NCBI GenBank assembly: GCA_963575745.1 | Contig: CAUYUJ010000335.1 | Location: forward strand, 1-64,000 | DNA from: Prorocentrum cordatum | Lineage: Eukaryota | Reading direction: 5' to 3' | Length of the DNA stretch: 64,000 bases | Part shown: in pieces, positions 692-60,278 of the stretch | How the letters are laid out: each line of letters opens with the position of its first letter | How positions within the stretch are numbered: position 1 is the first letter of the stretch | Notes under the pieces: generated by a model | What the model saw: only the letters and a program-made list of their open reading frames with translations | Database searches by the model: none | Told to the model about the DNA's origin: nothing | Made by a program: the position numbers and the translations under genes

Positions 692-876
692 TATTCCAGA
701 TTTCGTAATAAAGGGAGGGGGGTCTCATTTCGGGGGGGGTCTCTTCCAGGGCATCTTGGAGGGCCTGGGGGGGGTCTGGGGACGATGTTTTGGAGGGTTC
801 TCCCACGGGGGGGGGCCTAAAACTTTTCGTCTGGGAGGGTTGAGACCCCCTCCCTTTTATTACGAAGTCTGGAGTA
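692..876. mobile_element. MITE family A (~180 bp, ~33-bp TIR, TA flanks); mirror copy 5050-5234
   Basis: TA-(C/T)TCCAGATTTCGTAATAAAGGGAGGGGGGTCTCA ... TGAGACCCCCTCCCTTTTATTACGAAGTCTGGAG-TA. TA target duplication is typical of Tc1/mariner-type elements. Confidence 0.8.
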
Positions 877-3800: not shown

Positions 3801-5510
3801 CCACTACGTTGTCGTCGAACCTTACGACACCGACGCCAGGGCAGTCGAAGTAGGCGACATAATGAGCTGGTTGATGGGAGATCGAACACGGCGACAGGAC
3901 ATTTGCATTTTACGCCCACCCCTGCCCACCTCCCCCTGCCAACCAAATATCTTTCATTTCGCCCCGCTCCTCCTTGATGAGACACCTCTGAGCTAGATCT
4001 CCGCGCCTGCACTTGACAGTAATATCGAGATCACGACAACGTATCTATCATGGCCTGATCGTGACGACTACTGTTATTCGCAACTATGGAGCCACCCGCG
4101 TCCGCCAACCCCCGGCAACAAACATATACAACATAATGTGTCCCCCCAAACCAAAGGCATGAAACGTGTACTTGCATCTTAACGCACTGTCGAAATGAAC
4201 TTCGGATACTCGGAAATTGGACCCGGGATGGGGATGCCATTGAATTCAGATCTCCGAGATACATGCACACGGGCAGGGATGATATTGGACAGACGCGCAA
4301 TAACATCCCGATGCTAGCGTCTCGGGATTTGTTTTGGCGACAGGTCCGATTCGTCATACGCGGGTGGCCCCCCGAGTGGCGGACCTACCAAGTGCCTGCT
4401 GGAGTATCCTACTGCGTGGTGTCGATACTCTTGGTGCTGGACTGCCATACCAGCTGGGCACCCTGTCAGTGCCATAGCGCGCAGCGCAGCTGCCACTTCC
4501 AGGGCCTCTGCCAGCCCTTTATGGGCTTTGCTCTTCAGGTTGGATGGCAATGGGAGCCCAACCAAAACGCTGGCGTGATTGCTTGCCAATGCTGCTCTGA
4601 AAAACCTCCTGGGCAAGCCCCCAACCCAAAACTCAAGATCCATCTCAACTAATTCCGAGGGGAAAAGGCAAAATCTCGTTTAGCTGGGCGCCTTCCGGTT
4701 TGACACTGGCGTCTCGTAGTAATAAGCCGTGGTTCTTCTGAAGTGCCCACAACCCTCTGGGAGCCCAATGTGATCCCCCAGCCAGCTATTACAGCCCCTT
4801 CTTTTCCCTCCAGGGTGGGCCGTAATCCCTGCCCTAACACACGCCGCAACACGCCTTCTGTTGGGCTTGATTCTTCTCAAAAGCGCCTTGGGCGCTTTGA
4901 TACCGTTTTGCACGTTGGGCTCGTGACGCTAAAAGCGATACAAAAACACGCCTAATAATGTTGGCGTGTCTTACCGTGTTCTTGGCCTTTTCAAGCCCGC
5001 CGCTGTGGATCTGTATTATTTCAACGTTGCTCGCTTTCTTGTCAAAGGCTACTCCAGACTTCGTAATAAAAGGGAGGGGGTCTCAACCCTCCCAGACGAA
5101 AAGTTTTAGGCCCCCCCCCGTGGGAGAACCCTCCAAAACATCGTCCCCAGACCCCCCCCAGGCCCTCCAAGATGCCCTGGAAGAGACCCCCCCCGAAATG
5201 AGACCCCCCTCCCTTTATTACGAAATCTGGAATACCCAAAAAGGGCCTTATCAAACGAGTTCCAGTGGGTCCCCCGCAGCCCTCGAATTCGGCACACCGC
5301 CCCAACAACTTGGTTCTTAAATATGCCCTGGGCGTTTCTCTCATACTGGTTTCGTGGTGGCGTGTTGGGAACACGCGTGCAGCGTCTTCAGATTCCAACA
5401 GCGCGGTTTAACACTGCTGTCTGCCACGTCCTCAGTTCCTTCTCCTTGCGTCCAGCCCTCCCTGCATTCTTGTTCTGACATGGTTGCTCTTCTTTGGACG
5501 TCGCTGCCGA

Positions 5511-5820
5511 CTGGTCGCTGGGCCTCCGGGCGCGTTCCGCGCCGGTGTCAGACCGGTGTTTAGGACGTCGTGTTGGGTTCTCCCACGGGGGGGGGGGGTC
5601 TAAAACTTCTCGTCTGGGAGGGTTGAGACCCCCTCCCTTTATTACGAAATCTGGAGTACTCCTCGTCTTCACTGCCGTATTCGCTCCCGCTCTCCCGTTC
5701 CTGCTGTCCCCCCGTCCTCCCGCTCCGCGCGCAGAGCGCAGAGCTAATAAAAAGGCCCACACAGCGTCCTAGCACCGGTCTAACACCGGCGCGGAACACG
5801 CCCGGAGGCCCACCGACCAG
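5511..5820. repeat. Fold-back element with ~60-bp IRs enclosing a half copy of MITE A (also ~106-415, ~10387-10696, ~15255-15564)
   Basis: ctggtcgctgggcctccgggcgcgttccgcgccggtgtcagaccggtg ... caccggtctaacaccggcgcggaacacgcccggaggcccaccgaccag. Confidence 0.75.
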
Positions 5821-6025
5821 AGCCTGTTTTTTTGGATTCAGCCAAGTTTACTTGCATGGCGTTCGCCCCCCTCCCCCCCCTCGCCCCTCTTCAAGCGAAT
5901 ACTAGCGTGCAAGTGCCTTTCGACTTGCGTGATTTCCGCGCCCCCCACCCCCCAGGCTTGCTTCAGGCTCAGCCCCCCCCCCCCGTCCATGCAAGCAAAC
6001 TTGCCAGAGTCTAAAAAAACAGGCT
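5821..6025. repeat. Fold-back element with ~39-bp imperfect IRs (repeated in each unit)
   Basis: agcctgtttttttggattcagccaagtttacttgcatgg ... ccatgcaagcaaacttgccagagtctaaaaaaacaggct. Confidence 0.7.
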
Positions 6026-6331
6026 CCCAGTCAGCAGCGAAAAACAGGCTCCCAGTCAGCAGCGACGTCCAAAGAAGAGCAACCATATCAGAACAAGAAT
6101 GCAGGGAGGACTGGACGCAAGGAGAAGGAACTGAGGACGTGGTAGACAGCAATGCTAAACCGCGCGGTTGGAATCTGAAGACGCTGCACGCGTGTTCCCA
6201 ACACGCCACCACGAAACCAGTATGAGAGAAACGCCCAGGGCATATTTAAGAACCAAGTTGTTGGGGCGGTGCGCCGAATTCGAGGGCTGCGGGGGACCCA
6301 CTGGAACTCGTTTGATAAGGTCCTTTTTGGG

Positions 6332-6511
6332 TACTCCAGATTTCGTAATAAAGGGAGGGGGGTCTCATTTCGGGGGGGGTCTCTTCCAGGGCATCTTGGA
6401 GGGCCTGGGGGGGTCTGGGGACGATGTTTTGGAGGGTTCTCCCACGGGGGGGGCCTAAAACTTCTCGTCTGGGAGGGTTGAGACCCCTCCTTTTTAACGA
6501 AATCTGGAGTA
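6332..6511. mobile_element. MITE family A copy
   Basis: Same TIRs and TA flanks. Confidence 0.8.
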
Positions 6512-6792
6512 GCGTTTGACATGAAAGCGAGCAACGTTGAAAAGAATACAGATCCACAGCGGCGGGCGAAAAAGCCAAGACACGTTAAGAAACGCCAAAC
6601 ACTAGTAGGCGTGTGTTGGTATCGCTTTAGCGCGTACGAGCCCAAAGTACTCTTGTGGCCCTGATGGGGCTCTGTAGTGGGCCATGTAACTGGGTGCCCC
6701 TCTCGCAGCTCTACGGGAGACGGTCTGGCGGCCCGATGAGGGCTCTGTGGGAGCCTTGCGGCCAGAGCGGCGCCAAGCCACAGTGGTTCTGC

Positions 6793-6986
6793 TACTCAGA
6801 TTTCGTAGTAAAAGGGAGGGGGTCTGGACCCTCCAAGACAAGCCATTTCAGACCCCCCTCCGTGGGAGAACCCTCCAAGACATCGTCCCCAGACCCCCCC
6901 AGGCCCTCCAAGATAGCCTGGGAGAGACCCCCCCCCCGGGGGGGACCCGAAATGAGACCCCCTCCCTTATTACGAATCTGTGAGTA
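6793..6986. mobile_element. MITE family A copy (opposite orientation, variant interior)
   Basis: TA-ctcagatttcgtagtaaaagggagg ... cctcccttattacgaatctgtgag-TA. Confidence 0.75.
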
Positions 6987-7749
6987 GGCTTTCGCGATTT
7001 TGTTGAACGGTGGCTGGCGGTGCGCTTTGGGGTTTCCTCACGGGGGATCTGTGCCAAACAGCTACCTCGGCAATAACCATCGGCGTGTATGCCCACGTCT
7101 TGGGCCTCCGCAAGGTCAAGGACAAGGCGAGGTCGGCTCCAAAATAGCCACTCAAGGTGGGACGCGATGGTCCCACTGGGCTCGGATCTCCCCTCCAAAG
7201 GCCGATTTCCTCGAAACATTAAAACAGATTCAAAAAGAGCGAACATGGTCAACAATACTAGAACACATCTTCCCAATTATGTTTGACCATTTTTGGATGG
7301 CTCTGTAGAGGGACGTGCCCGAACCAACATGAGCATCCAAAAGGCCTCCAGATCTACTCGAACTCCTTTTGGAGGCCCAGTGTTAAGTCGGGCACGTCCC
7401 TCTACAGGAGGAGTATTCAGAAATAGTAAAAAATAGTCGGGGAAGATGTTTCTAATAGTTGTTTGATCAGTTTTGCTTATTTTGAACATTTCACATGTTT
7501 CGTTGAACATCGGCTGTAGGGGGACATGCCCGACCTAAGCTCCATGACCACCTCGGGCCAAGGTGGAAGGGCTCCCCAGGCTGGCTTCGAGAGGCCACCA
7601 GCTTCGAAGCACGGACGGTCTTACTGATTTTTTCCTCGATTGCAAAAGCGTCCTGCGATGGACAGTTCCTGATATCGAAGTCAGTCAGCCTCGCTGCTCA
7701 TAAACTACTGCGCAACTGAAACAACAAGAACACCTGCTGGAAAACAAGC

Positions 7750-9496
7750 TTAAGCGTATGTTGCCTCTGCAGTCGAGACCGGTCGGTAGCCACTGCCAGT
7801 CCGAAGCGTTTGCAGATCCTGTAGATTCACAAGTTCCACGCACCCAGCCTCTGGCGTGCTCGCGTTGCTGTGGTCGTCCTCGCCTAGAAGACCTCCGACA
7901 GCAAACCCAGCTCGGCCTAAATGCTTGACGTACACGTTCAAGTACGACGTGCCGCCGTCCGTATGCCCGCGAACGACCTTCAGCTCTATCTTACCAAAAA
8001 TAACCCACTTAGGAACCTCAACCTCGCTCTGCGATGCGCTGTAATGAAAACCTCCGACTTGTTCTGCCTCTGCCCAAGATCCGGTCACGTTCAAATCTTG
8101 GAAATATAGATCCGTGCACTGTTTACCCAATCGGCGTGCATCGGCCTGCACGCGAAGCAATGCTTTTTCAGCGCGCTCTCCACGAGGGATGTTGATAAGA
8201 ACATGGTTGCCTGGCGCCATCAAATCAAAACGCTCGCCGTATACATTCTTCATATGGGGATCGCCAACGGCCGAACTCGTCGCCACCGTCCCTGGGAAAG
8301 ACGAGGACGGACTGGAGGTCGGGCTGCTCGTCGGACTTGACGTCGGGCCCGGGGACGCGGTTGGACTAGAGGTCGGGCTGCTCGTCGGGCTCTCGTCGGG
8401 GCCCGCAGTCGCGAAGGCGTCGGACTGGACGTGGGGGACGAGGTTTCGGACTGGGAGGTCGGGTGCTCGGAGGAACTGGCGTCGGGGACGCGAGGTCGGA
8501 CTGGAGGTAGGGCTGCTCTCGGACTGCTCGTCGGGGCCGCAGTCGGCGAAGGCGTCGGACTGGACGTCGGGGACGAGGTCGGACTGGAGGTCGGGCTGCT
8601 CGTCGGACTGGACGTTGGGGACGCGGTCGGACTGGAGGTCGGGCTGCTCGTCGGACTGCTCGTCGGGGCCGCAGTCGGCGAAGGCGTCGGACTGGACGTC
8701 GGGGACGAGGTCGGACTGGAGGTCGGGCTGCTCGTCGGACTAGACGTCGGGGACGCGGTCGGACTGGAGGTCGGGCTGCTCGTCGGACTGGACGTCGGGG
8801 ACGCGGTCGGACTGGAGGTCGGGCTGCTTGTCGGGCTGCTCGTCGGACTGGGCGTCGGGGACGAGGTCGGGCTGCTCGTCGGGGCCGTCGTGGGTGCTGC
8901 AGTAGGACACTGGAACACCAGCGACGGTCTGGTGCTCTCGTCGAGGGCTTCGCGAGACCAAGAACTACTGCCCCCCCCGCCCACATCCATTCTGCAACCA
9001 ACGCAAACGAGATGGTGTTCTTACCGGCGAGTTTCGCCTGTGGAACGGTGCATGCGAACGCCTGCCCGACTGGGCCTGGGTATGCCTGATAATCGCAAAC
9101 CTGCTCCTGCCAGCCAGGGTGGTTGGACCAAATAGTGGTGCTTTCCGACCACGCGTTCTGCACCGTGAAGACGGCCACCTTTGGAAAGGTACCAGCAGCA
9201 TAGTCAGTCGGCCACAGCAGGAGCGTTGCATCCTGAGCATCGCAAGGAACGCTGAATTGCAGGAACGAGTATCGAGTGCCGCACCAGCCGTCGGAGTAGC
9301 GCTTGTTGACCAAAACCTGCTGGGTACCATAATTCGTTGACTGGCAGGACTGAACATAGGTATCCGCGAGTGGCCGCTCGACGGTTGTAGCCTGAGTCGG
9401 GCTTGCAGCCATCTGCATCAGGCAGGAGTCGAAGTCCTTTCCGTTTGCCCCTGAGACTGCCAAAAACGCGGTGGCGAGTTTCACTAGCATGCTCAT
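7750..9496 (-). pseudogene. Copy 1 of the CBM96-like/PT/GDPH gene, frameshifted (pseudogene or sequencing indels)
   Basis: The protein is split over ORFs 8366..9631, 8250..8990 and 7750..8286. Indels fall in a C-run at ~8971-8980 and in the repeat at ~8340-8520. Confidence 0.8.
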
Positions 9497-9596
9497 CAAC
9501 CCGATCCGAACTTGTACGAAATGAGGTCTGAAGGTATCAAGCTGTGTGTATAGTTTTCGGCATTTGCCTTGGACCGCAAACTTGATCCGAAAATGC

Positions 9597-9618
9597 CTTG
9601 AGCCAAAGTGGCTGCGGA
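9597..9618 (-). other. Genomic DinoSL relic, unit 1
   Basis: Same 22-mer upstream of gene copy 1. Confidence 0.92.
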
Positions 9619-9940
9619 CAGAAGATCTCACTGATTTGGGTTGTGTCGTTTTCCCGCTTTCGATGGGTCCTTACGGCCGCAAGATCGCCCCAGAGTGAAG
9701 TCGGGCATGTCCCCATACAGGCGGATCTTGGGCGACACATTAAACATTCTCAAAAAATACTCCCAACATGTTTCAAACAGTACTGTGTTAAAACATGTCC
9801 CCTGACTTGTTTGACTATCATTGAACAGCCCCCCTGTAAGGGACAGTCCCCGACTCTAATCCAAGGAAGGTACCAAAAGGGCCAGAACGGAAGAGGGGTG
9901 GGTGACCGCGCGTTCTATCTGACGGTGCAGGTCCTCCGCA

Positions 9941-10141
9941 TAGTCGGGTCGGGCGAAAGGGGGGGATAGCAAAGGGGGGGGGGGAGAATCAGCTCGCGTA
10001 GCTGAATTTCCTGGCCGCTCCCGCGCCGGGAGGCGCCCATGTATCGAGGAATGGGCCCCTCGGTGGGGCCGAAACCAGCTGCACGCAGCAAATTTCGTAA
10101 CCCCCCCTTTCCCAATCCCCCCCTTTCGCCCGGCCCGAATA
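9941..10141. mobile_element. MITE family B (~200 bp, ~40-bp imperfect TIR, TA flanks); copies ~14805-15009 and 19649-19851
   Basis: TA-GTCGGGTCGGGCGAAAGGGGGGGATAGCAAAGGGGGGG ... CCCCCCCTTTCCCAATCCCCCCCTTTCGCCCGGCCCGAA-TA. Confidence 0.65.
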
Positions 10142-11205
10142 GGGTGCGGACCGAGGTTTCGAAAGGGGTTGGAGCGTCCAAGACAGACCCAAAGGGCTCC
10201 GAGGCGGGTCCGGGGCAGGATGCCCTCCAACATCCGCCGACCCTTCGGCTTGCGCGACACGCTTTTCAGCCTGCGCCGTCGTCGTCGTCGTCGCCAGTTC
10301 CCTCTTGTTCAATAGCACAAACAAGCGGCGCGCGTCGCATACGGTTCACCTGCGCATCGCTCTGCTTCGCATACGGTCGCTGCCGACTGGTCGCTGGGCC
10401 TCCGGGCGCGTTCCGCGCCGGTGTCAGACCGGTGTTTAGGACGTCGTGTTGGGTTCTCCCACGGGGGGGGGGGGTCTAAAACTTCTCGTCTGGGAGGGTT
10501 GAGACCCCCTCCCTTTATTACGAAATCTGGAGTACTCCTCGTCTTCACTGCCGTATTCGCTCCCGCTCTCCCGTTCCTGCTGTCCCCCCGTCCTCCCGCT
10601 CCGCGCGCAGAGCGCAGAGCTAATAAAAAGGCCCACACAGCGTCCTAGCACCGGTCTAACACCGGCGCGGAACACGCCCGGAGGCCCACCGACCAGAGCC
10701 TGTTTTTTTGGATTCAGCCAAGTTTACTTGCATGGCGTTCGCCCCCCGCCCCCCCCGCGCCCCTTTCAAAGCGAATCAATAGCGATGCAAGTGCCTTTCG
10801 ACTTGCGTGATTTCCGCGCCCCCACCCCCCCCCAGGTTGCTTCAGGCCAGCCCCCCCCGTCCATGCAAGTAAACTTGCCAGAGTCTAGAAAAACAGGCTC
10901 CCAGTCAGCAGCGAAAAACAGGCTCCCAGTCAGCAGCGACGTCCAAAGAAGAGCAACCATATCAGAACAAGAATGCAGGGAGGACTGGAAGCAAGGAGAA
11001 GGAACTGAGGACGTGGTAGACAGCAATGCTAAACCGCGCGGTTGGAATCTGAAGACGCTGCACGCGTGTTCCCAACACGCCACCACGAAACCAGTATGAG
11101 AGAAACGCCCAGGGCATATTTAAGAACCAAGTTGTTGGGGCGGTGCGCCGAATTCGAGGGCTGCGGGGGACCCACTGGAACTCGTTTGATAAGGCCTTTT
11201 TTGGG

Positions 11206-11388
11206 TACTCCAGATTTCGTAATAAAGGGAGGGGGGTCTCATTTCGGGGGGGGTCTCTTCCAGGGCATCTTGGAGGGCCTGGGGGGGTCTGGGGACGATG
11301 TTTTGGAGGGTTCTCCCACGGGGGGGGCCTAAAACTTCTCGTCTGGGAGGGTTGAGACCCCCTCCCTTTTATTACGAAATCTGGAGTA
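11206..11388. mobile_element. MITE family A copy
   Basis: Same TIRs and TA flanks. Confidence 0.8.
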
Positions 11389-11668
11389 GCCTTTGACAAG
11401 AAAGCGAGCAACGTTGAAAGAATACAGATCCACAGCGGCGGGCTTGAAAAAGCCAAGAACACGGTAAGACACGCCAACACTATTAGGCGTGTTGTTGTAT
11501 CGCTTTTAGCGCGTCACGAGCCCAAAGTACTCTTGTGGCCTTGCTGGGGCTCTGTCGGGGCCCCCTCTGGGGCCCTCTCGCCGCTCTCCGGGAGCCGGTC
11601 TGGAGCCCGATGAGCGCTCCTGTGGGCAGCCTTGCGGCCAGCGCGGCGCCAAGCACAGGTGGTTCTGC

Positions 11669-11854
11669 TACTCCAGATTTCGTAGTAAAAGGGAGGGGGT
11701 CTGGACCCTGCAAGACAAGCCATTTCAGACCCCCCCCCGTGAGAGAACCCTCCAAAACATCGTCCCCAGACCCCCCAGGCCCTCCAAGATAGCCTGGGAG
11801 AGACCCCCCCCCCAGAAATGAGACCCCCCTCCCTTTATTACGAAATCTGGAGTA
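11669..11854. mobile_element. MITE family A copy (opposite orientation)
   Basis: Same TIRs and TA flanks. Confidence 0.8.
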
Positions 11855-12620
11855 GGCTTTCGCGATTTGTTGAACGGTGCTGGGGGCGCTTTGGGGGTCC
11901 TCACGGGGGCATCTGTGCCAAACCGCTCCTCGGCAATAACATCGGCGTGTATGCCCCCCTTCTTGGCCTCGGCAGGTCAAGACAAGGCGAGGCGGTCTCC
12001 AAAATAGCCACCAAGGTGGGACGCGATGGTCCCACTGGGCTCGGGCATCTCCCTCCACAGGCAGATTTTCCTCGAAACATTAAAACATATTCAAAAAGAG
12101 CGAACACTGGTCAACAAATACTAGGAACATCTTCCCCATATTATGTTTTGACCATTTTTGGATGGTCCTCCTGTAAAGGGACGTGCCCGACCCAACACTG
12201 CGCATCCAAAAGGCCTCCAGATCTACTCGAACTCCTTTTGGAGGCCCAGTGTTAAGTCGGGCACGTCCCTCTACAGGAGGAGTATTCAGAAATAGTAAAA
12301 AATAGTCAGGGGGAGATGTTTCTAATATTTGTTTGATCAGTTTGGGTTATTTTGAATATTTCACATGTGTCGTTGAACATCGGCTGTAGGGGGACATGCC
12401 CGACCTAAGCTCCATGACCACCTCGGGCTAAGGTGGAAGGGCTCCCCAGGCTGGCTTGGAGAGGCCACCAGCTTCGAAGCACGGAAGGTCTTACTGATTT
12501 TTTCCTCGATTGCAAAAGTGTCCTGCGATGAACAGTTCCTGATATCGAAGTCAGTCAGCCTCGCTGTTCATAAACTACTGCGCAACTGAAACAACAAGAA
12601 CACTGACTGGAAAACAAAGC

Positions 12621-14370
12621 TTAAACGTATTTCCCTCTGCAATCGAGAACCGTCGGGAGCCACTGCGAACGTGTGCAGATAACGCCGATTCACCCAATTC
12701 CACGCCCCAAATCCCCGGGCTTGCTCGCGCGCTGTGGCAGTCTTCGCCTAGAAGACCTCCGACAGCAAAACCCAAGCCGACCGAAGCTGTGCCGTACACG
12801 TTCAAAATATTGACATGCCGCCCGTTCCGTGCTGCCCACGAGCGCCCTTCAGCTCTATCTTGCCCAAAGTACCACTTCAGGAAAACTGACCTTCTCTCTG
12901 CGATGCGCTGTATGAAAACCTCGACTTGTTCTCGCCTCTGCCAAGATCCGAGTCACGTTCAATGGGAAATATAGATCGTGCACGTTTACCCAATCGGCGT
13001 GCATCGGCCTGCACGCGAAGCAATGCTTTTTCAGCGCGCTCTCCACGAGGAATGTTGATAAGAACATGTTTGCCTGGCGCCATCAAATCAAAACGCTCAC
13101 CGTATACATTCTTCATATGGGGATCGCCAACGGCCGAACTCGTCGCCACCGTCCCTGGAAAGTGGGGACGAGGACGCGACTGGAGGTCGGGCTGCTGTCG
13201 GACTGGAAGTCGGGGACGAGGTTCGCGTTCGGACTGGAGGTCGGGCTGCTCGTCGGGCTGCCTCGTCGGGGCCGCAGTCGGGCGAAGGGTCGGACTGGAC
13301 GGGGGGACGAGGTCGGACTGGAGGTCGGGCTGCTCGTCGGACTGGACGTCGGGGGACGCGGTTCGGACTGGAGTCGGGATTGCTCGTCGGGATTGCTCGT
13401 CCCGGCCGCAGTCGGCGAAGGCGTCGGAGGACGTCGGGGAAGAGTCGGACTGGAGGCCGGGCTGCTCGTCGGATGGACCTCGGGGACGCGTCGGACTGGA
13501 GGTCGGGCTGCTCGTCGGACTGCTCGTCGGGGCCGCAGTCGGCGAAGGCGTCGGACTGGACGTCGGGGACGAGGTCGGACTGGAGGTCGGGCTGCTCGTC
13601 GGACTAGACGTCGGGGACGCGGTCGGACTGGAGGTCGGGCTGCTCGTCGGACTGGACGTCGGTGACGCGGTCGGACTGGAGGTCGGGCTGCGCGGCTGTT
13701 GCGGGCTGCTCGCCCCCACTGGGGCGTTCGGAGGACGAGGTTCGGGATGAGGATCGGGGCCCCTCGTGGGTGCTGCTTGCAGTAGGACAATGGATAAGGC
13801 TTGGGGCGGAATGGTGCTCTGTAGAGGGCGTCGCGAGACCAAAACCTACTGCCACCCCTCCCACATCCATTCTGCAACCAACGCAAACGAAGATGGGTTC
13901 TTACGGCGAGTTCGCCTGTGAACGGTGAATGCGAACGTCTGCCGACTGGGCTGGGTATGCTGATAATCGCAAACCTGCGCCTGCCAGCCAGGGTGTTGAC
14001 CAAAATTAGTGGTGCTCCGACCACGCTTTTCTCACCGTGAAGACGGCCACCTTTGGAACGGTACCAGCCAGCATAGTCAGTCGGGCCACAGCAGGAGCGT
14101 TGCATCCTGAGCATCGCAAGGAACGCTGAATCGCAGGAACGAGTATCGAGTGCCGCACCAGCCGTCGGAGTAGCGCTTGTTGACCAAAACCTGCTGGGTA
14201 CCATAATTCGTTGACTGGCAGGACTGAACATAGGTATCCGCGAGTGGCCGCTCGACGGTTGTAGCCTGAGTCGGGCTTGCAGCCATCTGCATCAGGCAGG
14301 AGTCGAAGTCCTTTCCGTTTGCCCCTGAGACTGCCAAAAACGCGGTGGCGAGTTTCACTAGCATGCTCAT
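12621..14370 (-). pseudogene. Copy 2 of the CBM96-like/PT/GDPH gene, many indels (probably unpolished read error)
   Basis: The N-terminus is intact (ORF 14077..14505). Dense 1-2 nt indels run from ~12600 to 14090, while the flanks are near-identical to unit 3. Confidence 0.78.
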
Positions 14371-14470
14371 CAACCCGATCCGAACTTGTACGAAATGAGG
14401 TCTGAAGGTATCAAGCTGTGTGTATAGTTTTCGGCATTTGCCTTGGACCGCAAACTTGATCCGAAAATGC

Positions 14471-14492
14471 CTTGAGCCAAAGTGGCTGCGGA
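14471..14492 (-). other. Genomic DinoSL relic, unit 2
   Basis: Same 22-mer upstream of gene copy 2. Confidence 0.92.
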
Positions 14493-16072
14493 CAGAAGAT
14501 CTCACTGATTTGGGTTGTGTCGTTTTCCCGCTTTCGATGGGTCCTTACGGCCGCAAGATCGCCCCAGAGTGAAGTCGGGCATGTCCCCATACAGGCGGAT
14601 CTTGGGCGACACATTAAACATTCTCAAAAAATACTCCCAACATGTTTCAAACAGTACTGTGTTAAAACATGTCCCCTGACTTGTTTGACTATCATTGAAC
14701 AGCCCCCCTGTAGAGGGACAGGCCCGACTCAATCCAAGAGGTACCCAAAGGGCCCAGAACGGAAGAGGGGGTGACGCGTTCTATCTGGGGCAGTCCCTCC
14801 GCAATAGGTTCGGTACGGGCGAAAGGGGGGGATAGCAAAAGGGGGGGTTTGAGAATCAGCTCACGGAGCTGATTTTCCCGGCGCCTCCCGGCGCGGGGAG
14901 GCGCCCATGTATCGAGGAATGGGCCCCTCGGTGGGGCCGAAACCAGCTGCACGCAGCAAATTTCGTAACCCCCCCTTTCCCAATCCCCCCCTTTCGCCCG
15001 GCCCGAATAGGGTGCGGACCGAGGTTTCGAAAGGGGTTGGAGCGTCCAAGACAGACCCAAAGGGCTCCGAGGCGGGTCCGGGGCAGGATGCCCTCCAACA
15101 TCCGCCGACCCTTCGGCTTGCGCGACACGCTTTTCAGCCTGCGCCGTCGTCGTCGTCGTCGCCAGTTCCCTCTTGTTCAATAGCACAAACAAGCGGCGCG
15201 CGTCGCATACGGTTCACCTGCGCATCGCTCTGCTTCGCATACGGTCGCTGCCGACTGGTCGCTGGGCCTCCGGGCGCGTTCCGCGCCGGTGTCAGACCGG
15301 TGTTTAGGACGTCGTGTTGGGTTCTCCCACGGGGGGGGGGGGTCTAAAACTTCTCGTCTGGGAGGGTTGAGACCCCCTCCCTTTATTACGAAATCTGGAG
15401 TACTCCTCGTCTTCACTGCCGTATTCGCTCCCGCTCTCCCGTTCCTGCTGTCCCCCCGTCCTCCCGCTCCGCGCGCAGAGCGCAGAGCTAATAAAAAGGC
15501 CCACACAGCGTCCTAGCACCGGTCTAACACCGGCGCGGAACACGCCCGGAGGCCCACCGACCAGAGCCTGTTTTTTTGGATTCAGCCAAGTTTACTTGCA
15601 TGGCGTTCGCCCCCCTCCCCCCCCTCGCCCCTCTTCAAGCGAATACTAGCGTGCAAGTGCCTTTCGACTTGCGTGATTTCCGCGCCCCCCACCCCCCAGG
15701 CTTGCTTCAGGCTCAGCCCCCCCCCCGTCCATGCAAGTAAACTTGCCAGAGTCTAGAAAAACAGGCTCCCAGTCAGCAGCGAAAAACAGGCTCCCAGTCA
15801 GCAGCGACGTCCAAAGAAGAGCAACCATATCAGAACAAGAATGCAGGGAGGACTGGAAGCAAGGAGAAGGAACTGAGGACGTGGTAGACAGCAATGCTAA
15901 ACCGCGCGGTTGGAATCTGAAGACGCTGCACGCGTGTTCCCAACACGCCACCACGAAACCAGTATGAGAGAAACGCCCAGGGCATATTTAAGAACCAAGT
16001 TGTTGGGGCGGTGCGCCGAATTCGAGGGCTGCGGGGGACCCACTGGAACTCGTTTGATAAGGCCTTTTTGGG

Positions 16073-16255
16073 TACTCCAGATTTCGTAATAAAGGGAGGG
16101 GGGTCTCATTTCGGGGGGGGTCTCTTCCAGGGCATCTTGGAGGGCCTGGGGGGGTCTGGGGACGATGTTTTGGAGGGTTCTCCCACGGGGGGGGCCTAAA
16201 ACTTCTCGTCTGGGAGGGTTGAGACCCCCTCCCTTTTATTACGAAATCTGGAGTA
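16073..16255. mobile_element. MITE family A copy
   Basis: Same TIRs and TA flanks. Confidence 0.8.
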
Positions 16256-16535
16256 GCCTTTGACAAGAAAGCGAGCAACGTTGAAAGAATACAGATCCAC
16301 AGCGGCGGGCTTGAAAAAGCCAAGAACACGGTAAGACACGCCAACACTATTAGGCGTGTTGTTGTATCGCTTTTAGCGCGTCACGAGCCCAAAGTACTCT
16401 TGTGGCCTTGCTGGGGCTCTGTCGGGGCCCCCTCTGGGGCCCTCTCGCCGCTCTCCGGGAGCCGGTCTGGAGCCCGATGAGCGCTCCTGTGGGCAGCCTT
16501 GCGGCCAGCGCGGCGCCAAGCACAGGTGGTTCTGC

Positions 16536-16720
16536 TACTCCAGATTTCGTAGTAAAAGGGAGGGGGTCTGGACCCTCCAAGACAAGCCATTTCAGACCCC
16601 CCCCCGTGAGAGAACCCTCCAAAACATCGTCCCCAGACCCCCCAGGCCCTCCAAGATAGCCTGGAGAGACCCCCCCCCCAGAAATGAGACCCCCCTCCCT
16701 TTATTACGAAATCTGGAGTA
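16536..16720. mobile_element. MITE family A copy (opposite orientation)
   Basis: Same TIRs and TA flanks. Confidence 0.8.
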
Positions 16721-16905
16721 GGCTTTCGCGATTTGTTGAACGGTGCTGGGGGCGCTTTGGGGGTCCTCACGGGGGCATCTGTGCCAAACCGCTCCTCGGC
16801 AATAACATCGGCGTGTATGCCCCCCTTCTTGGCCTCGGCAGGTCAAGACAAGGCGAGGCGGTCTCCAAAATAGCCACCAAGGTGGGACGCGATGGTCCCA
16901 CTGGG

Positions 16906-17057
16906 CTCGGGCATCTCCCTCCACAGGCAGATTTTCCTCGAAACATTAAAACATATTCAAAAAGAGCGAACACTGGTCAACAAATACTAGGAACATCTTC
17001 CCCATATTATGTTTTGACCATTTTTGGATGGTCCTCCTGTAAAGGGACGTGCCCGAC
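16906..17057 (+). mobile_element. ~150-bp 'box' element, tail-to-tail partner; equivalents ~7181-7323 and 12040-12191
   Basis: CTCGGGCATCTCCCTCCACAG ... CTGTAAAGGGACGTGCCCGAC; the core aligns by eye with the reverse complement of 17143-17249. Confidence 0.7.
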
Positions 17058-17121
17058 CCAACACTGCGCATCCAAAAGGCCTCCAGATCTACTCGAACTC
17101 CTTTTGGAGGCCCAGTGTTAA

Positions 17122-17270
17122 GTCGGGCACGTCCCTCTACAGGAGGAGTATTCAGAAATAGTAAAAAATAGTCAGAGGGAGATGTTTCTAATATTTGTTT
17201 GATCAGTTTGGGTTATTTTGAATATTTCACATGTGTCGTTGAACATCGGCTGTAGGGGGACATGCCCGAC
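17122..17270 (-). mobile_element. ~150-bp 'box' element (21-bp terminal IRs, AT-rich core) 3' of gene, unit 3; equivalents 7387-7534 and 12256-12404
   Basis: (TTAA)GTCGGGCACGTCCCTCTACAG ... CTGTAGGGGGACATGCCCGAC(CTAA). Confidence 0.75.
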
Positions 17271-17433
17271 CTAAGCTCCATGACCACCTCGGGCTAAGGT
17301 GGAAGGGCTCCCCAGGCTGGCTTGGAGAGGCCACCAGCTTCGAAGCACGGAAGGTCTTACTGATTTTTTCCTCGATTGCAAAAGTGTCCTGCGATGAACA
17401 GTTCCTGATATCGAAGTCAGTCAGCCTCGCTGT

Positions 17434-19215
17434 TCATAAACTACTGCGCAACTGAAACAACAAGAACACCTGCTGGAAAACAAGCTTAAACGTATGTTCC
17501 CTCTGCAATCGAGACCGTCGGGAGCCACTGCGAACCGTGTGCAGATACCGTAGATTCACAAATTCCACGCACCCAACCTCCGGCGTGCTCGCGTCGCTGT
17601 GGTCGTCCTCGCCTAGAAGACCTCCGACAGCAAACCCAGCTCGGCCTAAATGCTTGACGTACACGTTCAAATATGACATGCCGCCGTCCGTATGCCCACG
17701 AGCGACCTTCAGCTCTATCTTGCCCAAAGTAACCCACTTAGGAACCTCGACCTCGCTCTGCGATGCGCTGTAATGAAAACCTCCGACTTGTTCTGCCTCT
17801 GCCCAAGATCCGGTCACGTTCAAATCGTGGAAATATAGATCCGTGCACTGTTTACCCAATCGGCGTGCATCGGCCTGCACGCGAAGCAATGCTTTTTCAG
17901 CGCGCTCTCCACGAGGAATGTTGATAAGAACATGTTTGCCTGGCGCCATCAAATCAAAACGCTCACCGTATACATTCTTCATATGGGGATCGCCAACGGC
18001 CGAACTCGTCGCCACCGTCCCTGGGAAAGACGAGGACGGACTGGAGGTCGGGCTGCTCGTCGGACTGGACGTCGGGGACGCGGTCGGACTGGAGGTCGGG
18101 CTGCTCGTCGGGCTGCTCGTCGGGGCCGCAGTCGGCGAAGGCGTCGGACTGGACGTCGGGGACGAGGTCGGACTGGAGGTCGGGCTGCTCGTCGGACTGG
18201 ACGTCGGGGACGCGGTCGGACTGGAGGTCGGGCTGCTCGTCGGACTGCTCGTCGGGGCCGCAGTCGGCGAAGGCGTCGGACTGGACGTCGGGGACGAGGT
18301 CGGACTGGAGGTCGGGCTGCTCGTCGGACTGGACGTCGGGGACGCGGTCGGACTGGAGGTCGGGCTGCTCGTCGGACTGCTCGTCGGGGCCGCAGTCGGC
18401 GAAGGCGTCGGACTGGACGTCGGGGACGAGGTCGGACTGGAGGTCGGGCTGCTCGTCGGACTAGACGTCGGGGACGCGGTCGGACTGGAGGTCGGGCTGC
18501 TCGTCGGACTGGACGTCGGTGACGCGGTCGGACTGGAGGTCGGGCTGCTTGTCGGGCTGCTCGTCGGACTGGGCGTCGGGGACGAGGTCGGGCTGCTCGT
18601 CGGGGCCGTCGTGGGTGCTGCAGTAGGACACTGGAACACCAGCGACGGTCTGGTGCTCTCGTCGAGGGCTTCGCGAGACCAAAAACTACTGCCCCCCGCC
18701 CACATCCATTCTGCAACCAACGCAAACGAGATGGTGTTCTTACCGGCGAGTTTCGCCTGTGGAACGGTGCATGCGAACGCCTGCCCGACTGGGCCTGGGT
18801 ATGCCTGATAATCGCAAACCTGCTCCTGCCAGCCAGGGTGGTTGGACCAAATAGTGGTGCTTTCCGACCACGCGTTCTGCACCGTGAAGACGGCCACCTT
18901 TGGAAAGGTACCAGCAGCATAGTCAGTCGGCCACAGCAGGAGCGTTGCATCCTGAGCATCGCAAGGAACGCTGAATTGCAGGAACGAGTATCGAGTGCCG
19001 CACCAGCCGTCGGAGTAGCGCTTGTTGACCAAAACCTGCTGGGTACCATAATTCGTTGACTGGCAGGACTGAACATAGGTATCCGCGAGTGGCCGCTCGA
19101 CGGTTGTAGCCTGAGTCGGGCTTGCAGCCATCTGCATCAGGCAGGAGTCGAAGTCCTTTCCGTTTGCCCCTGAGACTGCCAAAAACGCGGTGGCGAGTTT
19201 CACTAGCATGCTCAT
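17434..19215 (-). CDS. Secreted/surface protein: signal peptide + DNRLRE/CBM96-like domain + PT(SS) mucin-like stalk + GDPH (VWD/root-cap-like) C-terminal domain; intronless
   Basis: The first ATG downstream of the SL relic gives MSMLVKLATAFLAVSGANG (signal-like). Motifs ADTYV..TNYG..R.SFLQF..ATLLL..W.ESTTIW.N.P..SRE..RPSLV are typical of DNRLRE/CBM96 domains. A long PTSS repeat follows, then SAVGDPHMKNVYGERFDL. The last ~30 codons are frameshifted relative to copy 1, whose stop corresponds to 17486. Confidence 0.85.
   Translation of the reverse strand: MSMLVKLATAFLAVSGANGKDFDSCLMQMAASPTQATTVERPLADTYVQSCQSTNYGTQQVLVNKRYSDGWCGTRYSFLQFSVPCDAQDATLLLWPTDYAAGTFPKVAVFTVQNAWSESTTIWSNHPGWQEQVCDYQAYPGPVGQAFACTVPQAKLAGKNTISFALVAEWMWAGGSSFWSREALDESTRPSLVFQCPTAAPTTAPTSSPTSSPTPSPTSSPTSSPTSSPTASPTSSPTSSPTSSPTASPTSSPTSSPTSSPTSSPTSSPTPSPTAAPTSSPTSSPTSSPTASPTSSPTSSPTSSPTSSPTSSPTPSPTAAPTSSPTSSPTSSPTASPTSSPTSSPTSSPTSSPTSSPTPSPTAAPTSSPTSSPTSSPTASPTSSPTSSPTSSPSSSFPGTVATSSAVGDPHMKNVYGERFDLMAPGKHVLINIPRGERAEKALLRVQADARRLGKQCTDLYFHDLNVTGSWAEAEQVGGFHYSASQSEVEVPKWVTLGKIELKVARGHTDGGMSYLNVYVKHLGRAGFAVGGLLGEDDHSDASTPEVGCVEFVNLRYLHTVRSGSRRSRLQREHTFKLVFQQVFLLFQLRSSL
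18030..18625 (-). repeat. Coding 12-bp (PTSS) repeat with 120-bp higher-order unit
   Basis: 18181-18300 and 18301-18420 are identical; the unit encodes a 40-aa PTSS/PTAS/PTPS/PTAA block. Confidence 0.9.
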
Positions 19216-19315
19216 CAACCCGATCCGAACTTGTACGAAATGAGGTCTGAAGGTATCAAGCTGTGTGTATAGTTTTCGGCGTTTGCCTTGGACCGCAAAC
19301 TTGATCCGAAAATGC

Positions 19316-19337
19316 CTTGAGCCAAAGTGGCTGCGGA
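19316..19337 (-). other. Genomic relic of dinoflagellate spliced leader (DinoSL), unit 3
   Basis: Minus strand TCCGCAGCCACTTTGGCTCAAG vs canonical DCCGTAGCCATTTTGGCTCAAG (20/22). It is followed directly by a second relic GCATTTTCGGATCAAG (19300-19315). Confidence 0.92.
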
Positions 19338-19418
19338 CGGAAGATCTCACTGATTTGGGTTGTGTCGTTTTCCCGCTTTCGATGGGTCCTTACGGCCGCA
19401 AGATCGCCCCAGAATGAA

Positions 19419-19573
19419 GTCGGGCATGTCCCCCTACAGGCGGATCTTGGGCGACACATTAAACATTCTCAAAAAATACTCCCAACATGTTTCAAACAGT
19501 ACTGTGTTAAAACATGTCCCCTGACTTGTTTGACTATCGTTGAACAGCCCCCCTGTAGAGGGACAGGCCCGAC
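19419..19573 (+). mobile_element. ~150-bp 'box' element 5' of gene, unit 3; equivalents 9700-9854 and 14574-14728
   Basis: GTCGGGCATGTCCCCCTACAG ... CTGTAGAGGGACAGGCCCGAC; the core resembles the reverse complement of the 17122-17270 core. Confidence 0.75.
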
Positions 19574-20532
19574 TCAATCCAAGAGGTACCCAAAGGGCCC
19601 AGAACGGAAGAGGGGGTGACGCGTTCTATCTGGGGCAGTCCCTCCGCATAGGTCGGGTCGGGCGAAAGGGGGGGATAGCAAAGGGGGGGGGTGAGAATCA
19701 GCTCGCGTAGCTGATTTTCCTGGCGCCTCCCGGCGCCGGGAGGCGCCCATGTATCGAGGAATGGGCCCCTCGGTGGGGCCGAAACCAGCTGCACGCAGCA
19801 AATTTTGTAACCCCCCCTTTCCCAATCCCCCCCTTTCGCCCGGCCCGAATAGGGTGCGGACCGAGGTTTCGAAAGGGGTTGGAGCGTCCAAGACAGACCC
19901 AAAGGGCTCCGAGGCGGGTCCGGGGCAGGATGCCCTCCAACATCCGCCGACCCTTCGGCTTGCGCGACACGCTTTTCAGCCTGCGCCGTCGTCGTCGTCG
20001 TCGCCAGTTCCCTCTTGTTCAATAGCACAAACAAGCGGCGCGCGTGCCCTGGCTCTTGCACCAGGGAGCCGCGAAGGACAGGAGGCTCCTGCTCCCTTCC
20101 TTCAGGAGGGGCTTCCGAGCTGTAGAACACAGCGGGCAAGGCCAGGGGGGCGGCCAGGGGGAGAGCGAGGGGAGCTGGGGAGGGCTGGGTTGAGGAGTCC
20201 AGGGCAGGGACAGGACGGCCAGGGGGGAAGACGAACGGCGAACGAACGAACGAACGACGACGACGAAAACAAAGAAGCCCGAGCTCTCGGACACAGCTGT
20301 GCAAGAGAATGAACGTCGTAGCTGAATCGATGTCATTCCCTCTTTCCCTCCCTTCCCTGACGAGGGGCATGGGGGGCGCGGGAGGGGGCCCTGGTCAGAA
20401 TGCCGCCCCCCCCGAGTTCTCGGCGGGTCTCCGGGGGGGTCGCCCGCGGGGGTCCCAGGGAAGGCCCCGCCTGTGGTGGTGGGGGGGAGCTCCCAATCAG
20501 AATGCCGCCTTCCCCCGGGGCCCCAGCGTTAG

Positions 20533-20667
20533 GTCGGGCATGTCCCGCTGCAGGCAGATTTTGGACGAAACATACAAGTACCCCCCCAAGTATTCCCAGA
20601 AAACTAAAAAATAGTTAAAACAGCGTCCCCAGATTTTTTGTTAGTATTCCCCCTGGACAGGCCCGAC
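20533..20667 (+). mobile_element. Diverged 'box' element outside the array; a further partial opposite-orientation copy starts at 21591
   Basis: GTCGGGCATGTCCCGCTGCAG-gcagattttggacgaaacat...ggacaggcccgac(ttag); at 21569-21640 ccttttggaggtccagtgttaagtcgtgtgcgtccctc. Confidence 0.6.
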
Positions 20668-20747
20668 TTAGCCCCAGCGGGTCCCAGGGGGTGGGGGGGT
20701 GGTCCCGGGTCAGAATGCTGCAACCCCCCGGTGCCCCGGGGAATGAG

Positions 20748-20915
20748 CTGGTTTCGCCCCGCTGGTTTCGCTGGCGCTGGTTTCGCCGGCGCTAGTTTCG
20801 CTGGCGCTGGTTTCGCTGGCGCTGGTTTCGCCGGCGGCTGCTTTCGCCCGCGCTGGTTTCGCCGACACCGTCGTCGCCGTCGGCATTGCCGTTGGCGCCG
20901 CCGCCGCCGCCGCTA

Positions 20916-20996
<81 letters not shown>

Positions 20997-21565
20997 GGCG
21001 TCGGGCGTCGGGCGTCGGACCCGAGCAGACGAGTCGGACTGGGCGGGCGGACCCGAGCGGGCGAACCCCAACGGGCGGGTCGGGTCGGGCGGGCGGGACA
21101 TCCAGAGTGCGGGGCGCGTTCGACCGAACACGCGCGAACCGTAACAGACGGGTCGGGCCGGACGGGCGGACCCTAGCGGGCCGGGTCGGGTCGGGTCGGG
21201 CGGGCGAAATCTAAAGGGCGCGGGCGGGTCGGGTCGAGCGGGGCATCAACATGTTGGGCACGCTCGACCACGCACGCGCGAACCGTAACGGGCGGGTCGG
21301 GTCGGGCGGGCGGACCCACGCGGGTCGGGTCGGGTCGGGCGGGCGGACCCTGACGGTCGGATCGGGTCGGGCGGGACATTAAACATGGGGGCGCGTTCCC
21401 GCGAACACGCGCGAGCCCTAACGGGGAGGTGTGGGTCGGGCGAGCGGACCTTGGCGGGCGGGTCGGGTCGGGTCGGGCAGGCGGACCTTAACGGGTGGGT
21501 CGGGTCGAGGGGTCGGGTCGGGTCGGGCGGGCGGACCCTGGCGGGCGGGTCGGGTCGGATCGGGC
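20748..21565. repeat. Low-complexity block: (GCTGGTTTCGCYGGC)n, (GTC)n at ~20916-20995, and (GGGTC/GGGC)n
   Basis: Read directly from the sequence. Confidence 0.9.
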
Positions 21566-21749
21566 GAGCCTTTTGGAGGTCCAGTGTTAAGTCGTGTGCG
21601 TCCCTCAACCAGAGGACTATTCAAAAGCAGTCAAAACTTATAGCCGGAGTGCAGTATCCCCAAACAGGGCTTTTACCCCCCCGCGGTTTCCAAGGTCGAC
21701 TGCGTCTCCGTATTCTTCGTTCAGACTCACTCCTACGCAAACGCACTCA

Positions 21750-57563: not shown

Positions 57564-57651
<88 letters not shown>
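57564..57651. repeat. Poly-A tract (~88 nt)
   Basis: Read directly from the sequence. Confidence 0.95.

Positions 57652-60238: not shown

Positions 60239-60278
<40 letters not shown>

What the first reader, a model, noticed from the sequence alone, without database searches (positions are those of the whole stretch)
17122..19573. SL-capped retrogene boxed by inverted ~150-bp elements: candidate mRNA-capture / gene-cassette system
Seen: a complete mRNA-like unit (22-nt DinoSL relic at 19337, 5' UTR, intronless CDS, short 3' UTR with an A6 at ~17364-17369) fills almost the whole gap between two oppositely oriented copies of one ~150-bp element. The inner ends are a perfect 21-bp inverted pair: CTGTAGGGGGACATGCCCGAC (17250-17270) and GTCGGGCATGTCCCCCTACAG (19419-19439). 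The SL begins only 81 bp inside the upstream box. The outer ends lie next to TTAA/TCAA. The layout is the same in all three units, but they arose by duplication, so this is one independent event. Established: genomic SL relics mark retroposed mRNAs in dinoflagellates. Inference: the boxes may be integration or recombination sites for cDNA, long TIRs of a Pack-type non-autonomous transposon carrying a retrogene, or portable promoter/terminator modules. No cognate enzyme is visible in the window.
Basis: partly seen in the sequence, partly recalled or inferred. Interest (0 to 1): 0.82.

Follow-up and report, generated by a model that had tools for sequence, protein, structure and literature searches.

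The report
Retrogene inserted between foldback repeat copies
A dinoflagellate gene copied back from its messenger RNA sits between small hairpin-forming repeats, but its own flanking duplication shows it arrived by ordinary retroposition, so the repeats look like bystanders and not a gene-capture device.

Summary
A minus-strand, intronless gene (17434-19215) carries a 22-nt DinoSL relic (19316-19337, 20 of 22) and an A6 run (17364-17369). It lies between two inverted ~150-bp boxes with identical 21-nt inner ends, and the pattern recurs in three ~4.87-kb tandem units.

Two things change the reading.
- **The retrocopy has its own junctions.** A 19-bp direct repeat (17348-17366 and 19338-19356, 17 of 19) abuts the SL 5' end and the A run. 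This is the target-site duplication expected from LINE-type retroposition. It lies 62 and 77 bp from the boxes.
- **Each box is a complete foldback element.** Each has its own pair of 21-nt terminal inverted repeats. The locus holds five independent copies (C, A, B, D, partial E). RNA-type contigs carry the same arms around other, shorter loops.

The tandem duplication is not box-bounded, and 71 long ORFs show no RT, transposase or recombinase.

Best reading: an ordinary SL-tagged retrogene that lies in a cluster of MITE-like repeats and was then tandemly triplicated. No whole genome was available, so a genome-wide link between boxes and retrogenes is untested. Interest is modest. The duplication itself is the most useful detail.

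The parts
5500..20045 (.). Tandem array of three ~4.87-kb units. Each holds boxes C and A, the retrogene and box B.
   Evidence: unit 2 vs unit 3 is 96.0% identical over 5048 nt, and unit 2 vs unit 1 is 92.0% over 4734 nt. One search gives spacings of 4842-4876.
17367..19337 (-). Retrocopy of unit 3, from the SL relic 5' end to the non-templated A remnant
   Evidence: The bounds are set by the 19-bp direct repeats.
19316..19337 (-). Full-length DinoSL relic, 20 of 22 identical
   Evidence: The DinoSL sequence is as printed in PMC5585692 (passage seen).
19300..19315 (-). Second, 5'-truncated SL relic. It matches SL positions 9-22 at 13 of 14 with one gap, and marks an earlier round of retroposition.
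17434..19215 (-). CDS as assembled (593 aa): signal-peptide-like N-terminus, CBM96, PT repeats and a C-terminal GDPH domain. The real stop is probably the TAA at 17486-17488, because the assembly lacks 1 nt near 17514.
   Evidence: (CBM96 at 2.8e-14, PT at 5.6e-16), table 4
19338..19356 (.). Target-site duplication, copy next to the SL 5' end
17348..17366 (.). Target-site duplication, copy next to the A run (17 of 19 identical to the other copy)
   Evidence: The 19-mer occurs with up to 3 mismatches at 6 places in the window, exactly two per unit.
17364..17369 (-). A6 run. Three A belong to the duplication and three are the poly(A) remnant.
17122..17270 (-). Box A, a foldback element with 21-nt TIRs at both ends
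19419..19573 (+). Box B, a foldback element with 21-nt TIRs at both ends
   Evidence: (z -3.42)
16906..17057 (+). Box C, a third copy. It sits with box A right end to right end.
   Evidence: (I22: 68-nt arms, 84% complementary)
17058..17121 (.). Palindromic C-A linker. It carries the conserved flank that extends the element beyond the 21-nt TIR.
   Evidence: Rfam gives only a sub-threshold hairpin hit.
20533..20667 (+). Box D, a copy outside the tandem array, flanked by TTAG on both sides
21568..21640 (-). Box E, a right-end fragment that has the same conserved flank
   Evidence: D20; profile positions 127-199, E 1.4e-12
7612..9637 (-). Unit 1 retrocopy with its two duplication copies (7612-7630 and 9619-9637). 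The ORF is broken by frameshifts.
12482..14511 (-). Unit 2 retrocopy with its two duplication copies (12482-12500 and 14493-14511). It has many indels.

Best explanation
This is a processed retrogene in a dinoflagellate genome; the best protein match is to Prorocentrum cordatum.

A mature mRNA that was SL-capped and polyadenylated was reverse-transcribed and integrated by target-primed reverse transcription of the LINE type. The mRNA already carried one truncated SL relic from an earlier round of retroposition. It encodes a secreted CBM96 / PT-linker / GDPH-domain protein. The staggered cut produced a 19-bp target-site duplication whose first bases are AAA.

The ~158-bp interval that took the retrocopy is now bounded by two oppositely oriented copies of a ~150-200-bp MITE-like foldback element. 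The locus holds five such copies. I read the boxes as bystanders. They are non-autonomous DNA-transposon-like repeats, of the general kind already reported as abundant in this genome. Whether they were there before the retrocopy or came later is not determined.

After the insertion, two substitutions accumulated in the duplication and two in the SL relic. A ~4.87-kb segment, which includes the boxes and ~2.4 kb of other repeats, was then triplicated in tandem.

Shown: the anatomy, the duplication, the self-contained box structure, the extra box copies, the array limits and the RNA cover. Inferred: the LINE enzyme, the order of box and retrocopy arrival, and the lack of any role for the boxes.
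For: - **SL relics.** The full relic is 20 of 22 identical and is followed directly by a truncated one.
- **Duplication.** A 19-bp direct repeat abuts the SL 5' end on one side and the A run on the other, in all three units. The two differences between its copies are shared by all units. The 19-mer occurs nowhere else in the window, on either strand, with up to 3 mismatches. Only 16 of 20000 random 19-mers had such a partner in a 60-nt zone 2 kb away.
- **RNA cover.** RNA-type contigs from four runs, one of them on record as poly(A) RNA, cover 17371-19299 colinearly. One 722-nt contig has 0 differences. In X1 and X2 the bin depths show no cover over 19300-19381.
- **Box structure.** Each box folds on its own TIRs. 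Boxes C, A, B and D are 56-70% identical overall but keep their TIRs.
- **Box distribution in the window.** nhmmer finds 11 places, which are 3 each of C, A and B plus D and E. None lies outside 7157-21640.
- **Other family members.** Contigs join box arms across other or shorter inner sequence, with 10 joint rows. One has 18 other letters between the arms at depth 910 in X11 (tables 5 and 5c).
- **Array ends.** They are not at boxes.
- **Literature.** Passages of PMC10666404 report non-autonomous DNA-transposon-like elements with short inverted and direct repeats in P. cordatum. Passages of 10.1101/2020.10.14.339549 describe 3-8-nt duplications for such elements in other dinoflagellates.
Against: - All five independent box copies in the 64-kb window lie within about 5 kb of the retrogene locus, and none lies in the other ~44 kb. 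The association is therefore not shown to be random.
- The retrocopy sits near the middle of the A-B interval, with 77 nt on one side of the 19-nt target and 62 nt on the other.
- The box joints have sides of 22-27 letters at 90% likeness. The tool itself warns that this class is often repeats or other organisms. They show that similar arms exist elsewhere, not how many copies there are or where.
- The kind of runs X1, X2 and X11 is not on record.
- Contigs cannot show transcript ends.
- No LINE reverse transcriptase was seen in the window.
- Only one independent event was examined.
Confidence: 0.72

Rival explanations
1. A and B are the long terminal arms of one foldback or Pack-type non-autonomous DNA transposon of about 460 bp before the insertion. 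The retrogene sits in its loop, and the composite can be moved as a cassette by a transposase encoded elsewhere.
For: A and B are inverted copies of one family with identical inner 21-mers. The outer flanks TTAA and TCAA match at 3 of 4 positions. The insertion is near the centre of the A-B interval.
Against: Each box has both of its own TIRs and similar 4-nt flanks, and so do single boxes C, D and E. The retrocopy has its own 19-bp duplication inside the interval, so it was not acquired by transposase action. The three copies arose by a 4.87-kb tandem duplication whose ends are not at boxes. No second composite and no transposase appear in the window.
Confidence: 0.07
2. The boxes act as portable regulatory modules, such as a start region, a terminator or pause hairpin, or an insulator. 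They allowed the newly arrived retrocopy to be expressed and kept.
For: Box B lies 81 nt upstream of the SL relic, and box A lies 93 nt downstream of the A run. Both form stable hairpins. RNA contigs identical to this copy exist.
Against: In X1 and X2 no contig covers 19300-19381, so no transcript reaching from box B into the gene is seen. This is weak, because contigs drop rare forms. Boxes D and E flank no gene. Trans-splicing by itself can rescue a retrocopy from any read-through transcript; this is established knowledge, discussed in PMC6050394 passages. No test of promoter activity was possible.
Confidence: 0.1
3. The boxes are site-specific integration or recombination sites for cDNA, in the manner of attachment sites of a cassette system.
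For: Only the flanking layout.
Against: The junctions lie 62 and 77 bp from the boxes and carry a 19-bp duplication typical of staggered nicking. No recombinase, integrase or RT reached a Pfam cut-off in any of 71 long ORFs.
Confidence: 0.02
4. The 19-bp repeat is not a target-site duplication. It could be chance or part of a local repeat. The cDNA would then have entered by break repair, or the SL-like sequence would have arisen otherwise.
For: Only one event was seen, the two copies differ at 2 of 19 positions, and the A tail is very short.
Against: The repeat is positioned exactly against both ends of the retrocopy. It is absent elsewhere in the window, and the flanks beyond the 19 nt are dissimilar.
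Confidence: 0.05

Closest known systems
DinoSL-tagged processed retrogenes of dinoflagellates (Slamovits and Keeling 2008, recalled; Song et al. 2017, PMC5585692; Song et al. 2018, PMC6050394)
   Same: A genomic relic of the 22-nt spliced leader lies upstream of an intronless gene. A second, older relic sits directly behind the first, and the copy lies in a tandem gene array.
   Different: Here the copy also shows a 19-bp target-site duplication and an A remnant. The terms 'target site' and 'direct repeat' occur 0 times in PMC5585692, PMC6050394 and PMC12014239 (find). No paper in the searched library holds 'target site duplication', 'dinoflagellate' and 'retrogene' together.
LINE-1-type processed pseudogenes and retrogenes of animals (target-primed reverse transcription; established knowledge, recalled)
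   Same: The cDNA is full length, ends in an A tail, and is flanked by a 7-20-bp class direct repeat that begins with A.
   Different: The enzyme is unknown here and no LINE is visible in the window. The 5' end is marked by a spliced leader, and the A tail remnant is only 3 nt.
MITEs and introner-like non-autonomous DNA transposons of dinoflagellates (PMC10666404 passages; 10.1101/2020.10.14.339549 passages)
   Same: The elements are small (~150-200 bp) and non-coding, with an AT-rich interior (31-41% GC against ~58% around them). The terminal inverted repeats are conserved while the interior diverges, and the flanking direct repeats are short, possibly 4 nt.
   Different: They are intergenic here and not in introns. 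The conserved sequence runs about 20 nt beyond the 21-nt TIR in 3 of 5 copies, so the true ends are unclear. Copy number and transposase are unknown. The TIR strings appear in no searched paper.
Pack-MULE or Pack-MITE gene-carrying transposons (recalled)
   Same: A gene lies between inverted repeats of one family.
   Different: Here the 'arms' are two complete elements, the cargo is a whole retrocopy with its own duplication, and no transposed copies are known.

Membership tests
Processed retrogene made by LINE-type retroposition | 5' end corresponds to the mature mRNA 5' end (spliced leader) | tested here: met
   20 of 22 DinoSL relic at 19316-19337
Processed retrogene made by LINE-type retroposition | No introns | tested here: met
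   One ORF. RNA contigs are colinear over 17441-18066 and 18578-19299. The parent's intron content is unknown.
Processed retrogene made by LINE-type retroposition | Poly(A) remnant at the 3' end | tested here: met
   A6 at 17364-17369, of which 3 A lie outside the duplication. An X11 contig stops matching at 17371 with 22 unaligned letters that I could not see.
Processed retrogene made by LINE-type retroposition | Target-site duplication abutting both ends | tested here: met
   19 bp, 17 of 19 identical, in all 3 units
Processed retrogene made by LINE-type retroposition | Parent gene elsewhere, and a reverse transcriptase source | tested here: inconclusive
   A paralog, P0002, is 97% and 90% identical in the two domains, but its DNA could not be fetched. 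No RT in 71 ORFs of the window.
MITE (non-autonomous TIR DNA transposon) | Terminal inverted repeats on a short non-coding element | tested here: met
   21-nt TIRs on 134-155-bp boxes
MITE (non-autonomous TIR DNA transposon) | Target-site duplication of fixed length | tested here: inconclusive
   Flanking 4-mers, left/right in element orientation: D TTAG/TTAG, A TTAG/TTAA, B TGAA/TCAA, C TGGG/CCAA (1 of 4 positions match). Sequence beyond them is also conserved in C, A and E.
MITE (non-autonomous TIR DNA transposon) | Many dispersed copies | tested here: inconclusive
   5 independent local copies and none in the rest of the window. Arms occur in other contigs with other loops. No genome is held. 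The metagenome scan gave 120 single-arm chance hits, and viral contigs gave 0.
MITE (non-autonomous TIR DNA transposon) | Related autonomous element with a transposase | not testable with these tools
   None in the window; the genome is not available.
Pack-type gene-carrying transposon | Cargo lies inside one element, bounded by that element's only TIR pair | tested here: not met
   Each box has both TIRs. The cargo has its own 19-bp duplication between two complete boxes.
Pack-type gene-carrying transposon | Composite found at several unlinked sites with its own duplication | not testable with these tools
   The only copies are tandem duplicates with non-box ends.
Site-specific cassette system (integron-like) | Cargo joined at the recombination site, and a recombinase nearby | tested here: not met
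   Junctions lie 62 and 77 bp from the boxes. No recombinase family passed in 71 ORFs.
Introner element | Lies in an intron and supplies or recruits splice sites | tested here: not met
   The boxes are intergenic. The joints over them carry other letters between the sides, so they are replacements and not splices (table 5c).

The most novel reading that the evidence does not exclude
The inverted A/B pair is a foldback element whose loop is a preferred landing pad for retroposition, for example through cruciform or hairpin extrusion that exposes the interval to the LINE nuclease. The resulting box-retrogene-box composite can then be mobilised as a cassette. If so, dinoflagellates would have a two-step route, first retroposition into a foldback and then DNA transposition, for spreading expressed genes.
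Probability: 0.06. Interest if true: 0.75.

Novelty: new member of a known kind. Interest (0 to 1): 0.3.

Why it matters
Retroposition is thought to have shaped dinoflagellate genomes on a large scale, yet the enzyme route is still described as presumed (PMC5585692 passages; PMC12014239 passage).

A full-length SL relic with an exact 19-bp target-site duplication and an A remnant is sequence-level evidence for LINE-type target-primed reverse transcription. It also suggests a simple genome-wide test: look for direct repeats that abut SL relics and A runs.

The gene-cassette idea would have been far more striking, but this locus does not support it.

Tried and rejected
- **Whole-genome scan for the TIR.** No genome is held for this window.
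- **Metagenome scan with a degenerate TIR pattern.** None has a second arm within 400 nt at up to 4 mismatches (0 of 120). BLAST with the whole boxes matched only 23-39 nt, in 4 loci.
- **Viral contigs with the exact 22-nt pattern.** 0 hits.
- **Rfam over 16300-21900.** 3 hits, all miRNA-precursor models far below their gathering scores. The best was 37.7 bits against 94, on the C-A palindrome. I rejected these as plain hairpins.
- **Earlier-findings index.** By place, by sequence and by words it returned nothing.
- **Literature search for the four TIR strings.** 0 papers.
- **Other copies of the target.** The A-B interval flanks, the C-A linker and the outer flanks have no copies in the window beyond the tandem units, apart from the 22-nt flank shared with E.
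- **Pfam on the C-terminal domain alone.** Nothing useful: NIR_SIR at E 0.16.
- **Parts without RNA cover.** The relic SL and the region up to box B have no cover in X1 and X2. I take this only as weak, because contigs drop rare forms.
- **Transcript 5' and 3' ends.** I could not see the unaligned letters of the contigs that end at 17371 and 17387, so the present-day poly(A) site and trans-splice site remain unshown.
Full report
**What is there**

The window is GC-rich nuclear DNA, about 0.54-0.66 GC over most of its length. The only protein relative found for the gene is an unnamed Prorocentrum cordatum protein: 1 protein with E <= 0.001 among 243 candidates, 97% identical over the N-terminal domain. 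It differs from all three local copies and is therefore a paralog.

Positions 5500-20045 are a tandem array of three ~4.87-kb units. Unit 2 is 96.0% identical to unit 3 and 92.0% to unit 1.

Each unit holds a minus-strand gene. In unit 3 the ORF at 17434-19215 is continuous and 593 aa long. It has a signal-peptide-like start, a CBM96 domain (2.8e-14), PT repeats (5.6e-16) and a C-terminal domain with no Pfam match.

**Check of the observation**

- The DinoSL relic at 19316-19337 matches 20 of 22. There are 3 matches in the window, one per unit, against 0.00 expected.
- The A6 run is at 17364-17369.
- The two boxes are at 17122-17270 and 19419-19573. Their inner 21-mers are exact reverse complements. 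The TIR pattern has 17 matches with up to 3 mismatches against 0.02 expected, all between 7303 and 20553.
- The 81-nt gap between SL and box B, and the outer TTAA and TCAA, are as stated.

**First new point: the retrocopy has its own junctions**

A 19-nt direct repeat lies at 19338-19356 and at 17348-17366.
- The first copy touches the 5' end of the SL relic. The second touches the A run.
- The two copies agree at 17 of 19 positions.
- The same pair occurs in units 1 and 2, and the two differences between the copies are shared by all units.
- With up to 3 mismatches the 19-mer occurs at 6 places in the whole window on both strands, exactly these.
- Among 20000 random 19-mers, 16 had a partner with up to 2 mismatches in a 60-nt zone 2 kb away.
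- The flanks beyond the 19 nt are unrelated.

Read on the gene strand, the repeat starts with AAA and follows three further A. This is the anatomy of a target-site duplication made by target-primed reverse transcription. That mechanism is established for LINE-mediated retrocopies in animals, and I cite it from recall.

The junctions lie 62 nt from box B and 77 nt from box A, so the boxes are not the integration sites.

Directly behind the full relic sits a second relic that matches SL positions 9-22 at 13 of 14 with one gap. This fits the published idea of repeated rounds of retroposition (PMC6050394 passages). The detail that a relic is truncated by re-splicing at its internal AG is recalled, not read here.

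**Second new point: each box is a complete element**

- Every box carries the 21-nt repeat at both ends and folds on it. Box B scores z = -3.42 and box A z = -1.82.
- The unit holds a third box, C (16906-17057), 64 bp from A and inverted to it.
- Two more copies lie outside the array: D (20533-20667) and a right-end fragment, E (21568-21640).
- A profile built from the boxes finds 11 places in the window: three each of C, A and B, plus D and E. None lies outside 7157-21640.
- C, A, B and D are 56-70% identical to each other over box plus 25-nt flanks, yet they keep the TIRs. The interiors are 31-41% GC.
- Left-end and right-end TIRs differ at two fixed positions. The 'perfect inverted pair' is therefore the family's left end seen in two oppositely oriented copies.
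- The 4-nt flanks, left/right in element orientation, are TTAG/TTAG at D, TTAG/TTAA at A, TGAA/TCAA at B and TGGG/CCAA at C.
- About 20 nt beyond the right end is also conserved in C, A and E. The true element may therefore be ~200 bp, and the 4-mers cannot yet be called duplications.

**Evidence from sequencing runs**

Twenty listed runs hold part of the stretch, and 14 of them hold half or more of the sampled words. I laid four runs: X1, X2 and X11, whose kind is not on record, and X15, a poly(A) metatranscriptome.
- Contigs cover 17371-19299 colinearly. One 722-nt contig has 0 differences.
- Depth over flanks is near zero. In X1 and X2 the bin depths equal what the listed contigs ending at 19299 and 19266 give, so nothing covers 19300-19381.
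- This fits an expressed gene whose mature RNA lacks the relic SL. Contigs cannot prove transcript ends.
- All four runs carry one extra letter near 17514, and so does unit 1. The assembled unit 3 is therefore out of frame for its last ~25 codons, and the likely stop is the TAA at 17486-17488.
- Ten joint rows show contigs in which 22-27 letters of each box arm flank other or shorter inner sequence. The letters between number 2, 10, 18 and 19, and one such contig has depth 910 in X11.
- The tool warns that such short-sided joints at 90% likeness are often repeats. That is how I read them: other family members exist elsewhere in these samples. Their number and location are unknown.

**What could not be tested**

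- No genome is held.
- My single metagenome scan used too loose a pattern and gave only chance hits. Of 120 loci, 0 had a paired arm.
- Viral contigs gave 0 hits.
- In the window, 71 stop-to-stop ORFs of 180 aa or more outside the array gave no family above its Pfam cut-off, and no RT, transposase or recombinase.

**Most likely history**

- An SL-capped, polyadenylated mRNA was inserted by LINE-type retroposition into a ~158-bp interval that is now bounded by boxes A and B.
- Whether the boxes were already in place, or came later, is not shown.
- Two substitutions then accumulated in the duplication and two in the relic.
- A 4.87-kb segment was later triplicated, and its ends are not at boxes.
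- I put this bystander reading at 0.72.
- The rivals are a foldback or Pack-type composite (0.07), regulatory modules (0.10), site-specific cDNA integration (0.02) and a non-duplication origin for the 19-mer (0.05).

**Comparison with what is known**

- SL-relic retrogenes and tandem arrays are well described in dinoflagellates (PMC5585692, PMC6050394 and PMC12014239; passages only).
- I did not find any mention of target-site duplications around SL retrogenes. 'Target site' and 'direct repeat' occur 0 times in the three retrogene papers. No paper holds 'target site duplication', 'dinoflagellate' and 'retrogene' together. By their titles and abstract openings, the 20 listed of the 23 papers that hold 'dinoflagellate' and 'target site duplication' deal with introners, viruses or other transposons (listing only).

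**Verdict**

The retrogene reading is supported, and the capture or cassette reading is not. This is a new member of known kinds. Its one useful extra is a clean target-site duplication that points to the retroposition mechanism.

Noticed in passing
window 17500-17940 (minus), residues ~425-570 of P0001: The C-terminal domain carries a GDPH motif. Its ESM Atlas look-alikes are VWD/VWFD clusters, with feature scores of 0.93 and 0.91 and model TM of 0.57-0.60. This is a lead only. Pfam finds nothing. That GDPH is an autocleavage motif of VWD-type domains is recalled.
   Followed up: partly
window 17774-17907: Contig depth peaks here, at 142,498 in X11 and 7,885 in X1, with many variant contigs and loose ends. 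A large, highly expressed paralog family appears to share this short stretch around the GDPH motif.
   Followed up: no
window ~17514; units 1 and 2 at 7750-9496 and 12877-14291: All three assembled gene copies are frame-broken compared with the RNA contigs. Unit 3 lacks 1 nt, unit 1 has shifts in the PT repeats, and unit 2 has many indels. These may be assembly errors in repeats or real decay.
   Followed up: partly
window 57564-57651: An uninterrupted run of 88 A on the + strand. It could be the tail of a recent retroelement or retrocopy, or an assembly artefact.
   Followed up: no
window 60203-63323: A ~3.1-kb degenerate (GTA)n array, which explains the GC drop to 0.42-0.45 and the GC skew of +0.47.
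   Followed up: no
window 5153-5514 / 6052-6413, and 9 copies of a 48-nt unit between 5187 and 16720: The spacer of the tandem unit is packed with other inverted and dispersed repeats, including 362-nt arms that are 97% complementary. Being 'boxed by inverted repeats' is therefore common at this locus.
   Followed up: no
window 20747-21557: GC-rich minisatellites and a (TCG)27 run lie between boxes D and E.
   Followed up: no
window 1-1016 and 4912-5514: Segments of the tandem unit (10376-10803 and 10926-11528) recur here, both direct and inverted, at 96-98% identity. This lies outside the array proper, so the array's left border is rearranged.
   Followed up: no
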